Of a stretch of DNA of 64,000 nt, positions 47,409-48,845 are shown piece after piece. The stretch's first letter is position 1. Every line of letters begins with the position of its first letter. The notes below the pieces were generated by a model that ran no database searches, was not told the DNA's origin, and saw only the letters and a program-made list of their open reading frames with translations. Position numbers and translations under genes: made by a program. The stretch lies in NCBI RefSeq assembly GCF_003790525.1, contig NZ_CP033635.1. One strand, 5' to 3'. This DNA is from Escherichia coli (GTDB lineage Bacteria; Pseudomonadota; Gammaproteobacteria; Enterobacterales; Enterobacteriaceae).

Positions 47409-48845
47409 TCAGCGTTTGTAACCCCCGCCCAACGCACCAGTGAGTTGAATGGAGGCATCCAGCCACTGCCCTTGCAATAACAGGCCATTGGCCCGCTCAC
47501 GCAGCGCCGGGATCCTGGCTTCGCTGACGCGGGAACCGGCAATGATACCCGCGTTAAAGCGGGCCTGCGCAAGACCTACCACACGTAAGGCATCGCGCTC
47601 AATTTGCGCCTGATGCTGGTTTTTCTCCGCCAGTGTCTGAACCTGACTGGCTGCCCGCGCCACGTCATTCACCGCTTCAACCACCGCTTTGTTGTAGCTG
47701 GCGATAGACAAGTTGCTTTCGGCTTTTGCGATATCGAGATTGGCGTTAAGACGACCACTATCGAAAATGGGTAGCGTCAGGCCTGCCGTAACGCCCATTT
47801 GCTGCGCGGAATGACGGAACAGATCGCTTAAGTGCAACGCATCCTGTTGCAGAAAGGCCATCAGGTTGATGTCAGGATAAAATGCCGCTTTTGCCGCATC
47901 AATAGTGCTTAACGATGACTCAACGTACCAGTGCGCCGCCTGCAAATCTGCCCGCCGGGCCAGTAAGGAGTACCCGAGTTCATCAGGAAGCTGACTTGCC
48001 ACTTTCGGCAACGCGACCGGTTTAAGCTTCAATGACTTTGTCTGGTGGTTGGTGAGCGCACTTAACCGTGCCTCAATAATTTTCATTTTCCCCGCGACAT
48101 CGTTGAGCTGCTGCCGGGTTTTGCTGGCATTAATATCGGTTTCCACACCTTCAACTGAAGAAGTAATCCCGTTCTGATATAGCTGGCGATCGGTCACGAT
48201 AAGGGTGTTCTGCTCTTTTTCGATTTGCTGCAAGACCGTGTTTAACGCCGCCTGGGTTTGCCACTCCCAGTACAGGCGGGCTACGCTGCCAGCCAGCAAT
48301 TGGCGGGTTTGCTCGCGTTCCGCCACCCGTGCTTTAACCGTACCCAGGCGAGCAGTTACCTCCGCCCGATTCTTTCCCCAGATATCGAGATGCCAGCCCG
48401 CCGTTAAGCCAAAAGTACCGTTGGTGTACCACGGACCGGTCGTACCTGCGGCCGGATCGTTCAAAGCAAACGGCCCCATTAACCCTTCTGCCGACATTTT
48501 TTGCCGCTCCATATCCGCAGAAAAGTCGAGCTGCGGACCATCCTGAGTGGCAACTGCCTTCGCCTGGGCTTCAGCCAGCTGAATGCGCTGTTCAGCCACC
48601 TGCATATCCGGTGCGTTCTGTAGTGCATTGTTAATTAATGAAGTGAGTTGATTATCGTGATACTCCAGCCACCATTGGCTGTCTGGCCAACCATTTTTCA
48701 GCGCCGTGGGTAATGCGGTGTCAACTTGTGCCGCGGGTGTTTGCTGGCTTAACTCCTGGCGGGTTTCATGCATAGGCGCACACCCGGCCAGCATCAGTAA
48801 CAGCGGAAAACAGGCGATGGCTGGATAAAAAGAATCACGATTCAT
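47409..48845 (-). CDS. mdtQ: outer-membrane efflux lipoprotein (OMF/TolC-like); appears intact here
   Basis: Continuous ORF from MNRDSFYPAIACFPLLLMLAGCAP (lipobox) to the stop, about 478 aa with no internal frameshift. Confidence 0.75.
   Translation of the reverse strand: MNRDSFYPAIACFPLLLMLAGCAPMHETRQELSQQTPAAQVDTALPTALKNGWPDSQWWLEYHDNQLTSLINNALQNAPDMQVAEQRIQLAEAQAKAVATQDGPQLDFSADMERQKMSAEGLMGPFALNDPAAGTTGPWYTNGTFGLTAGWHLDIWGKNRAEVTARLGTVKARVAEREQTRQLLAGSVARLYWEWQTQAALNTVLQQIEKEQNTLIVTDRQLYQNGITSSVEGVETDINASKTRQQLNDVAGKMKIIEARLSALTNHQTKSLKLKPVALPKVASQLPDELGYSLLARRADLQAAHWYVESSLSTIDAAKAAFYPDINLMAFLQQDALHLSDLFRHSAQQMGVTAGLTLPIFDSGRLNANLDIAKAESNLSIASYNKAVVEAVNDVARAASQVQTLAEKNQHQAQIERDALRVVGLAQARFNAGIIAGSRVSEARIPALRERANGLLLQGQWLDASIQLTGALGGGYKR

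What the first reader, a model, noticed from the sequence alone, without database searches (positions are those of the whole stretch)
47409..48845. mdtQ outer-membrane efflux gene reads as an intact ORF
The ORF is continuous from a lipoprotein signal peptide (…LLLMLAGC) to the stop with no internal frameshift, whereas the K-12 copy is, as I recall, a frameshifted pseudogene. The strain therefore keeps a potentially functional TolC-like channel, with possible consequences for efflux-mediated resistance.
Basis: partly seen in the sequence, partly recalled or inferred. Interest (0 to 1): 0.3.

Follow-up and report, generated by a model that had tools for sequence, protein, structure and literature searches.

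The report
Intact mdtQ efflux channel gene; ordinary
The window carries a complete copy of mdtQ, an outer-membrane efflux-channel gene that is broken only in laboratory K-12 strains, so the intact copy is the normal wild-type state of E. coli and not a special feature of this strain.

Summary
On the minus strand, 47409-48845 is an uninterrupted 478-codon ORF with a lipoprotein signal (lipobox LAGC, Cys22). It matches the NCBIfam MdtQ equivalog end to end (1023 bits, cutoff 650).

MG1655 mdtQ is annotated "frameshifted". The lesion is the loss of one A from an A5 run (gene nt 148-152, window 48694-48698), which gives a stop at codon 70.

Intactness is the rule, not the exception:
- 4,420 of 5,411 complete E. 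coli genomes carry the exact intact 91-mer.
- Only 355 carry the K-12 allele, and all 60 listed look like K-12 laboratory lineages.
- Pairwise dN/dS is 0.06-0.13.
- Orthologues are full length, syntenic and without adjacent pump genes in Salmonella and Citrobacter.
- A 2025 TolC review already states that mdtQ is core-genome conserved despite its pseudogene label.

Its pump partner and any resistance effect remain unknown. Verdict: real, correctly read, already known, low interest.

Two side observations are more interesting. First, ~540 bp upstream of mdtQ lies a junction of the published ~1.3-Mb TRIP1a/TRIP1c inversion, and a 1384-bp IS110-family element sits exactly in it. All 84 genomes with this junction carry that IS. 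Second, the window is a recombinant mosaic with a sharp boundary at 42,570.

The parts
47409..48845 (-). mdtQ (formerly yohG) coding sequence, 478 aa plus stop: an intact outer-membrane-factor lipoprotein of the NodT family
   Evidence: ORF list and sequence. NCBIfam NF008524 MdtQ equivalog 1023 bits vs cutoff 650, aligned 1-478/478; TIGR01845 NodT 274 bits vs cutoff 210. Pfam OEP in two stretches. RefSeq annotates the identical sequence in SMS-3-5 as mdtQ, WP_001078163.1.
48780..48845 (-). Lipoprotein signal peptide, codons 1-22. Lipobox L-A-G-C is at codons 19-22 (window 48780-48791). Cys22 is the predicted lipidated first residue of the mature protein, and residue +2 is Ala.
   Evidence: Single regex match to [LVI][ASTVI][GAS]C at residue 19; mean Kyte-Doolittle hydropathy of residues 6-21 is 1.89. 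Sequence read directly. Outer-membrane sorting from Ala at +2 is inferred from the general Lol sorting rule (my knowledge).
48694..48698 (-). A5 homopolymer (T5 on the + strand) at gene nt 148-152, codons K50-N51. This is the site where K-12 has lost one A. It is intact here.
   Evidence: Pairwise and multiple alignments with MG1655. Allele-specific searches: exact intact 91-mer in 4,420 genomes, exact K-12 90-mer in 355.
48846..49380 (-). 535-bp upstream region of mdtQ. It contains the divergent small gene yohP (49069-49152, + strand) and the proximal half of a TRIP1 repeat (about 49202-49380). It is colinear with K-12 at ~98%. The mdtQ promoter is not identified.
   Evidence: K-12/SMS-3-5 colinearity ends ~520-550 bp upstream of the start codon. 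The promoter scan found one weak sigma-70-like match against 2.3 expected from shuffles, so it gives no evidence. The review states the mdtQ promoter is not experimentally confirmed.

Best explanation
Window 47409-48845 (minus strand) is the ordinary, intact wild-type allele of mdtQ (yohG), one of the four TolC-type outer-membrane factors of E. coli. SHOWN: it is a full-length member of the MdtQ equivalog and of the NodT/OMF lipoprotein family. It has a lipoprotein signal peptide and two OEP repeats, and it is homologous over its whole mature length to solved outer-membrane channels (VceC, OprM, CusC). It is under purifying selection within E. coli. It is conserved, syntenic and full length in Salmonella and Citrobacter. 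The K-12 pseudogene results from a lineage-specific loss of one A in an A5 run. INFERRED from the family: the protein is exported by Sec, lipidated at Cys22 and sorted to the outer membrane. There it trimerises into a beta-barrel pore with a periplasmic alpha-helical tunnel. That tunnel docks onto the periplasmic adaptor of an inner-membrane pump to form a tripartite exporter. No adaptor or pump gene is adjacent in any genus examined, so the partner must be encoded elsewhere. Its closest relatives (paralogue MdtP of mdtNOP; solved VceC of VceCAB, which is my recollection) serve EmrAB-type MFS pumps. An MFS-type partner such as MdtNO or EmrAB/EmrKY is therefore my best guess, held with low confidence. 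Any contribution to drug resistance is probably small next to TolC.
For: - Intact ORF and lipobox.
- NF008524 1023 bits, 1-478/478; TIGR01845 274 bits; MdtP model 356 bits as the second-best hit.
- Two OEP stretches.
- PDB relatives: VceC 1yc9 E=1e-39 over residues 51-477; OprM, SilC, CusC, CmeC, MtrE at about 1e-20 to 1e-23.
- K-12 copy annotated frameshifted, with the lesion mapped.
- Exact intact allele in 4,420 genomes against 355 for the K-12 allele.
- The locus is present in 5,421 of 5,426 genomes.
- Ten of ten non-K-12 alleles translated, including the window's own, are intact at 478 aa.
- dN/dS against the window allele is 0.058-0.126; the ratio of means over all pairs is 0.093.
- Orthologues are 478-479 aa at 93% (E. 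albertii), 82% (Salmonella) and 81% (Citrobacter) identity.
- These orthologues keep the same dusC-(yohP)-mdtQ-...-yohD-yohC-pbpG-dld neighbourhood with no pump genes.
Against: - No expression evidence: no convincing promoter or terminator could be read from the sequence, and the review says the promoter is unconfirmed.
- No partner gene is identifiable from context.
- The gene is dispensable enough to be lost repeatedly. Cases seen: K-12; an independent 1-nt deletion in STEC276; a 3'-terminal frameshift in LR-27; near-complete loss in CFSAN061769. Independent truncations also occur in S. Typhi and Paratyphi A (PMC9241588).
- The window allele has three private substitutions (A31E, I215L, A217V). 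All are conservative.
Confidence: 0.9

Rival explanations
1. The ORF is intact but effectively cryptic. It is transcribed little or not at all under ordinary conditions and has no dedicated pump, so keeping it has no measurable effect on resistance.
For: - It is an orphan gene with no recognisable promoter.
- Its promoter is unconfirmed and its function not elucidated.
- It is lost repeatedly in K-12, STEC276 and Salmonella Typhi/Paratyphi A.
- Reported effects of its loss on susceptibility are slight.
Against: dN/dS of 0.06-0.13 within E. coli, and full-length conservation with synteny across Escherichia, Salmonella and Citrobacter. These show that selection acts on the protein, so it must be made and used under some natural condition.
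Confidence: 0.25
2. MdtQ is a functional outer-membrane channel, but its natural job is not drug efflux. It may export an endogenous metabolite, peptide or metal, or act in envelope or stress physiology. The multidrug name would then be a misnomer.
For: - The name rests only on mild mutant phenotypes.
- The review finds MdtQ and MdtP divergent from TolC and CusC and suggests distinct functions.
- The conserved neighbour yohP is a stress-induced small membrane protein (PMC12719787).
- There is no adjacent drug pump.
Against: There is no positive evidence for any alternative substrate. All close relatives with known roles (VceC, MdtP, OprM, CusC) are parts of efflux systems.
Confidence: 0.2
3. 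The difference from K-12 is a homopolymer sequencing or assembly artefact, either in the window or in the K-12 reference, rather than a real allele difference.
For: The lesion lies in a homopolymer run, a typical site of sequencing error.
Against: A5 is short. 355 independent assemblies reproduce the A4 allele exactly and 4,420 reproduce A5. All listed A4 genomes are K-12-derived laboratory lineages, which is a phylogenetically coherent pattern.
Confidence: 0.01

Closest known systems
MdtQ/YohG of E. coli (NCBIfam NF008524; e.g. O157:H7 Q8X659; SMS-3-5 WP_001078163.1)
   Same: It is the same gene. The DNA is 100% identical to SMS-3-5 over the gene and its flanks and 97-98% identical to other E. 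coli. The model match is full length, and yohP, yohF, yohD, yohC and pbpG are the same neighbours.
   Different: Nothing of substance. There are three private conservative substitutions (A31E, I215L, A217V) relative to ten other alleles. Upstream, the usual dusC neighbour is replaced by an IS110-family element and lysO because of a chromosomal inversion.
K-12 MG1655 mdtQ pseudogene (b2139 is the locus tag as I recall it)
   Same: Orthologous locus, 97.6% DNA identity. Once the missing A is restored, the K-12 sequence encodes a 478-aa protein with 6 amino-acid differences from the window's.
   Different: K-12 has A4 instead of A5 at gene nt 148-152. The frame shifts after K50 and stops at codon 70, so the signal peptide is separated from the channel domain.
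MdtP (YjcP) of the mdtNOP operon, E. coli
   Same: Closest paralogue model: NF007390, 356 bits over residues 17-477. It is also a NodT-type lipoprotein OMF. Null mutants of both genes are reported to share the same mild phenotype.
   Different: The score is below the MdtP cutoff of 597 bits, so this is not MdtP. MdtP is encoded in an operon with an adaptor and an MFS pump, whereas mdtQ stands alone.
VceC of Vibrio cholerae (PDB 1YC9)
   Same: Best solved relative: E=1e-39, aligned over residues 51-477. It belongs to the OMF fold family.
   Different: It is a distant relative from another genus. That it belongs to the VceCAB MFS-type pump is my knowledge and was not tested here.
TolC (TIGR01844) and CusC of E. 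coli
   Different: The TolC subfamily model scores only 51 bits against a cutoff of 225. The review gives 12% sequence identity to TolC. TolC is not a lipoprotein (my knowledge), whereas MdtQ has a lipobox.

Membership tests
MdtQ equivalog (NCBIfam NF008524) | Whole-protein score above the curated cutoff, with end-to-end alignment | tested here: met
   1023.1 bits vs cutoff 650; protein residues 1-478 aligned to model positions 1-478 of 478
MdtQ equivalog (NCBIfam NF008524) | Orthologous chromosomal position next to yohP, yohF, yohD, yohC and pbpG | tested here: met
   The downstream neighbourhood is the same in the window/SMS-3-5, K-12, Salmonella and Citrobacter. Only the far upstream neighbour differs, because of the inversion.
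Outer membrane factor, NodT-type lipoprotein (TIGR01845; Pfam OEP PF02321) | N-terminal lipoprotein signal peptide with a lipobox cysteine | tested here: met
   LAGC at residues 19-22, preceded by a hydrophobic core
Outer membrane factor, NodT-type lipoprotein (TIGR01845; Pfam OEP PF02321) | Two tandem OEP repeats, and a subfamily model score above cutoff | tested here: met
   Pfam OEP in 2 stretches, 106 bits vs cutoff 22; TIGR01845 274 bits vs cutoff 210
Outer membrane factor, NodT-type lipoprotein (TIGR01845; Pfam OEP PF02321) | Homology over the whole mature chain to OMFs of solved structure | tested here: met
Outer membrane factor, NodT-type lipoprotein (TIGR01845; Pfam OEP PF02321) | Trimeric channel that docks to a periplasmic adaptor and inner-membrane pump and supports export | not testable with these tools
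   This needs biochemistry or genetics. No adjacent adaptor or pump gene exists to suggest a partner.
TolC subfamily (TIGR01844) | Score above the subfamily cutoff | tested here: not met
   51.1 bits vs cutoff 225.15. It is TolC-like in architecture but not a member of the TolC subfamily.
MdtP family (NF007390) | Score above the equivalog cutoff | tested here: not met
   356.3 bits vs cutoff 597. It is a paralogue, not MdtP.

The most novel reading that the evidence does not exclude
In wild E. coli the intact MdtQ is a working fourth exit duct that pairs with an MFS-type tripartite pump (MdtNO, EmrAB or EmrKY). It would provide a TolC-independent export route under some natural condition. If so, decades of K-12-based efflux genetics have systematically missed it, because K-12 alone lacks the protein.
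Probability: 0.25. Interest if true: 0.4.

Novelty: already known. Interest (0 to 1): 0.08.

Why it matters
For the finding itself, very little. It confirms that K-12 is the atypical strain for mdtQ, which the literature already says. The practical lesson is a caveat: conclusions about outer-membrane efflux channels drawn from K-12 do not include MdtQ, whose partner and substrates are still unknown.

The side observations may matter more. A published megabase inversion attributed to the TRIP1 repeat is, in every genome that carries this junction, accompanied by an IS110-family element inserted in that repeat. Newer PGAP annotations call this element an RNA-guided transposase. This changes the likely mechanism of the inversion and deserves its own look.

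Tried and rejected
1. I first took the window to be E. coli SMS-3-5, because the mdtQ region is 100% identical. This was wrong. A TPP-riboswitch hit mapped inside an SMS-3-5 integrase gene, which prompted a direct comparison. Only window 42,571-64,000 is SMS-3-5-like, and the rest differs by 1-8%. No complete genome in the collection matches the whole window.

2. I first read the TRIP1 typing as placing the inversion crossover exactly at the IS. The alignment showed that the a/c-diagnostic sites lie in the unique flanks, not in the repeat core. The crossover can therefore only be placed somewhere in the core plus the IS.

3. My first guesses for the second SMS-3-5 inversion junction missed. 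It was found at 2.313-2.316 Mb.

4. The promoter and terminator scan near mdtQ found nothing above shuffle expectation.

5. I tried to infer a pump partner from gene context in other genera. mdtQ has no adjacent pump genes there either. The homologue list reached only orthologues of at least 80% identity.

6. The primary papers were not held: Sulavik 2001 (mutant phenotypes) and Fricke 2008 (SMS-3-5 genome). The phenotype is cited second-hand, and the strain background used is unverified.

7. An Rfam scan found no described RNA family in the IS110-family element.

8. yehC, flagged "internal stop" in two reference annotations, reads open from its local ATG in the window, so I did not pursue it.

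9. I did not run a structure prediction. Sequence homology to solved channels and a published AlphaFold comparison made it unnecessary.

10. An earlier count gave the A-run as gene nt 144-148. The correct position is 148-152, corrected.

Full report
**1. The observation**

On the minus strand of the window an ORF runs from ATG (48845-48843) to TGA (47411-47409). It is 1437 nt, or 478 codons plus the stop, with no interruption. The product begins MNRDSFYPAIACFPLLLMLAGC. The only lipobox match is LAGC at residues 19-22, preceded by a hydrophobic core. The mechanical ORF extends in frame upstream to a TTG at 48935. However, the ATG at 48845 is the RefSeq start, and it aligns to position 1 of the family model.

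**2. What it is**

The protein matches the NCBIfam equivalog for MdtQ end to end: NF008524, 1023 bits against a cutoff of 650, residues 1-478 on model positions 1-478. It passes the NodT outer-membrane-factor subfamily model (TIGR01845, 274 bits against 210). It fails the MdtP (356 against 597) and TolC (51 against 225) models. Pfam finds two OEP repeats. Against solved structures the best relative is VceC (1yc9, E=1e-39, residues 51-477). It is followed by OprM, SilC, CusC, CmeC, MtrE, OprN and OprJ.

So this is MdtQ (formerly YohG), one of the four TolC-type channels of E. coli. It resembles TolC in architecture but belongs to the lipoprotein NodT branch.

**3. The K-12 comparison**

The locus in an MG1655 RefSeq assembly is annotated mdtQ, pseudogene, "frameshifted". 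Alignment shows 35 substitutions and one indel. K-12 lacks one A of the A5 run at gene nt 148-152 (codons K50-N51; window 48694-48698). The K-12 reading frame then stops at codon 70. The rest of the protein is still readable in the shifted frame.

**4. How unusual is an intact copy? Not at all.**

- The locus is present in 5,421 of 5,426 complete E. coli genomes.
- A 91-nt probe across the A-run, in which any single difference drops identity below 99%, is matched exactly by 4,420 of 5,411 genomes.
- The corresponding K-12 90-mer is matched exactly by 355 genomes. All 60 listed are K-12 laboratory lineages or their derivatives, such as MG1655, DH5alpha, DH1, C600, J53 and NCM3722. One or two have names I cannot place.
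- The remaining ~636 genomes carry some other difference in the probe, and their state at the run is unknown.
- In an evenly spaced sample of 39 full-length hits, 34 have an unchanged length. Ten of ten non-K-12 alleles that I translated, including the window's own, are intact at 478 aa.

Other lesions occur sporadically and independently:
- A 1-nt deletion near nt 411 in STEC276, annotated as a pseudogene.
- A 1-nt insertion near nt 1420 in LR-27, giving a 486-aa product with an altered C-terminus.
- An IS1 just upstream of an intact gene in MB46.
- Near-complete loss in CFSAN061769.

**5. Selection and conservation**

Nei-Gojobori dN/dS between the window allele and ten others is 0.058-0.126. 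The ratio of means over all pairs is 0.093. The repaired K-12 sequence gives 0.06, which indicates a recent inactivation. The window allele has three private, conservative substitutions: A31E, I215L and A217V.

Orthologues of 478-479 aa occur in E. albertii (93%), Salmonella (82%) and Citrobacter (81%). They lie in the same dusC-(yohP)-mdtQ-...-yohD-yohC-pbpG-dld neighbourhood, with no adaptor or pump gene nearby. yohF follows mdtQ in E. coli and Salmonella but is absent in the Citrobacter loci, so the two genes are not an obligate unit.

**6. Mechanism**

Shown: family membership, the lipoprotein signal, purifying selection, and the absence of adjacent pump genes.

Inferred from the family:
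- Sec export, lipidation of Cys22 and Lol sorting to the outer membrane (Ala at +2).
- Trimerisation into a beta-barrel with a periplasmic helical tunnel.
- Docking onto the adaptor of an inner-membrane pump.

The nearest relatives are MdtP (operon mdtNOP with an MFS pump) and VceC (an MFS-type system, from my knowledge). My best guess for a partner is therefore an EmrAB-like MFS pump, but nothing here tests that.

No promoter or terminator could be read from the sequence. The review says the promoter is unconfirmed.

**7. What is known**

A 2025 review of TolC makes the following points (PMC11762307):
- MdtQ is encoded independently.
- Its function is not elucidated.

A 2025 paper on YohP routinely calls the neighbour "the mdtQ pseudogene" in K-12 (PMC12719787). 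Independent truncations of mdtQ occur in S. Typhi and Paratyphi A (PMC9241588). The finding therefore restates known facts.

One loose end remains. If the cited mutant phenotype was measured in K-12, it is hard to reconcile with a frameshift at codon 50. I could not read the primary paper.

**8. Source of the window**

I first took the window to be SMS-3-5, because the mdtQ region is 100% identical. That was wrong.

- Only window 42,571-64,000 is SMS-3-5-like, with one difference in 21.4 kb at 50653.
- Window 1-42,570 differs from SMS-3-5 by 1-8%.
- The first ~4.1 kb and ~16.7-18.6 kb do not align to SMS-3-5 at all.
- The left part is 99.8-100% identical to phylogroup-A-type strains such as O6:H16 ETEC. 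The phylogroup labels are my knowledge.
- No complete genome matches the whole window.

The strain is thus a recombinant with a sharp boundary inside dld. mdtQ, yohP, the IS and lysO all lie in the SMS-3-5-like block, so the local coordinate mapping holds.

**9. Side finding: the inversion junction upstream of mdtQ**

About 540 bp upstream of mdtQ the K-12 gene order (dusC) is replaced by an IS110-family element and lysO. This is a junction of the ~1.3-Mb inversion between the TRIP1a and TRIP1c repeats. That inversion was published for SMS-3-5 and attributed to recombination between the repeats (PMC10888264).

The element:
- It spans window 49381-50764, which is 1384 bp.
- Its 341-aa transposase (49654-50679, minus strand) has the DEDD_Tnp_IS110 and Transposase_20 domains.
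- It sits inside the TRIP1 core with a 2-bp AT repeated at both flanks, and it has an 11-bp subterminal inverted repeat.

In SMS-3-5 the other junction (aqpZ | IS | dusC) carries a second copy in the opposite orientation, differing at 9 of 1384 sites.

Typing of the flanks only places the crossover somewhere within the TRIP1 core plus the IS. This corrects my first reading.

Population counts are more telling:
- 84 of 5,426 genomes have the lysO | IS110 | yohP-mdtQ junction.
- A synthetic IS-free junction query recovers 51 genomes, every one in two pieces spanning 3,384-3,386 bp, which means the IS is present.
- The other 33 carry an extra IS3.
- No genome has the junction without the IS.
- About 28 further genomes have the IS next to lysO or yohP without the inversion; CE10 is one example.

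The inversion is therefore tied to the IS copies. The cause is most simply homologous recombination between inverted copies, or conceivably the recombinase itself. The caveat is that the 84 genomes may descend from only a few events.

The 273-nt non-coding tail of the IS contains GAGGTAACA, which matches the target flank up to the AT core, and CGTTTTA, which matches the other flank. Statistically this is weak: four shared 7-mers against 1.2 expected, p about 0.09. No Rfam family matches there.

**10. Verdict**

The feature is the normal wild-type state of a known gene, so it is already known and of low interest. The IS110/TRIP1 inversion junction and the mosaic boundary are the more interesting things in this stretch.

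Noticed in passing
window 49202-50860 (IS110-family element 49381-50764; transposase ORF 49654-50679, minus strand; TRIP1 halves ~49202-49380 and 50765-~50860; lysO from 51019): This is a junction of the published ~1.3-Mb TRIP1a/TRIP1c inversion (lysO | IS | yohP-mdtQ), with a 1384-bp IS110-family element inserted in the TRIP1 core (2-bp AT at both flanks). In SMS-3-5 the reciprocal junction (aqpZ | IS | dusC; L018 3401-5500) carries an inverted second copy. All 84 of 5,426 genomes with this junction carry the IS, and none has it IS-free. The TRIP1 paper (PMC10888264) attributes the inversion to TRIP1 alone; in it IS110 appears only in a cited reference title. This suggests recombination between the inverted IS copies.
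   Followed up: yes
window 49381-49653 (273-nt non-coding tail after the IS110-family transposase stop, minus strand): The tail contains GAGGTAACA, identical to the TRIP1 target flank up to the AT core, and CGTTTTA, identical to the other flank. These may be guide segments of a bridge/seek RNA. The layout (short 5' end, long 3' tail, subterminal 11-bp inverted repeat ATGGACGCTCC/GGAGCGTCCAT) resembles the IS1111 subgroup as I recall it. Support is weak (p about 0.09), and there is no Rfam hit.
   Followed up: partly
window 42570/42571 (inside dld): There is a sharp mosaic boundary. To the right, 21.4 kb are identical to SMS-3-5 and relatives except for one base (50653). To the left, the sequence differs from SMS-3-5 by 1-8% and is 99.8-100% identical to phylogroup-A-type strains (O6:H16 ETEC and others). 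No complete genome matches the whole window. This is probably the edge of a large recombination import. The nearby rfb region is a known hotspot (my knowledge), but this was not tested.
   Followed up: partly
L004 (STEC276), L005 (LR-27), L006 (MB46), hit H40 (CFSAN061769): Other strains carry independent mdtQ lesions: a 1-nt deletion near gene nt 411 (annotated pseudogene); a 1-nt insertion near nt 1420 giving a 486-aa product that is still annotated as intact; an IS1 between yohP and an intact mdtQ; and near-complete loss of the gene. mdtQ is conserved but is lost occasionally.
   Followed up: partly
K-12 locus L001 3156-4591 (outside the window): Reviews cite increased puromycin, acriflavine and tetraphenylarsonium susceptibility of an E. 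coli mdtQ (yohG) null mutant. If that work used K-12, the gene was already frameshifted at codon 50, so a deletion phenotype would be puzzling. Possible explanations are a polar effect on yohF or yohP, or a different strain background. The primary paper was not available.
   Followed up: no
window 24468-24543 (+), 44971-45051 (-), 4047-4143 (-): Three Rfam gathering-threshold hits were found: OrzO-P antitoxin RNA (99.9 bits; a type I toxin-antitoxin locus that I recall as absent from K-12); the Peptidase-S11 RNA motif upstream of pbpG (72.8 bits); and the TPP riboswitch upstream of thiM (71.2 bits). All are known families in expected places.
   Followed up: no
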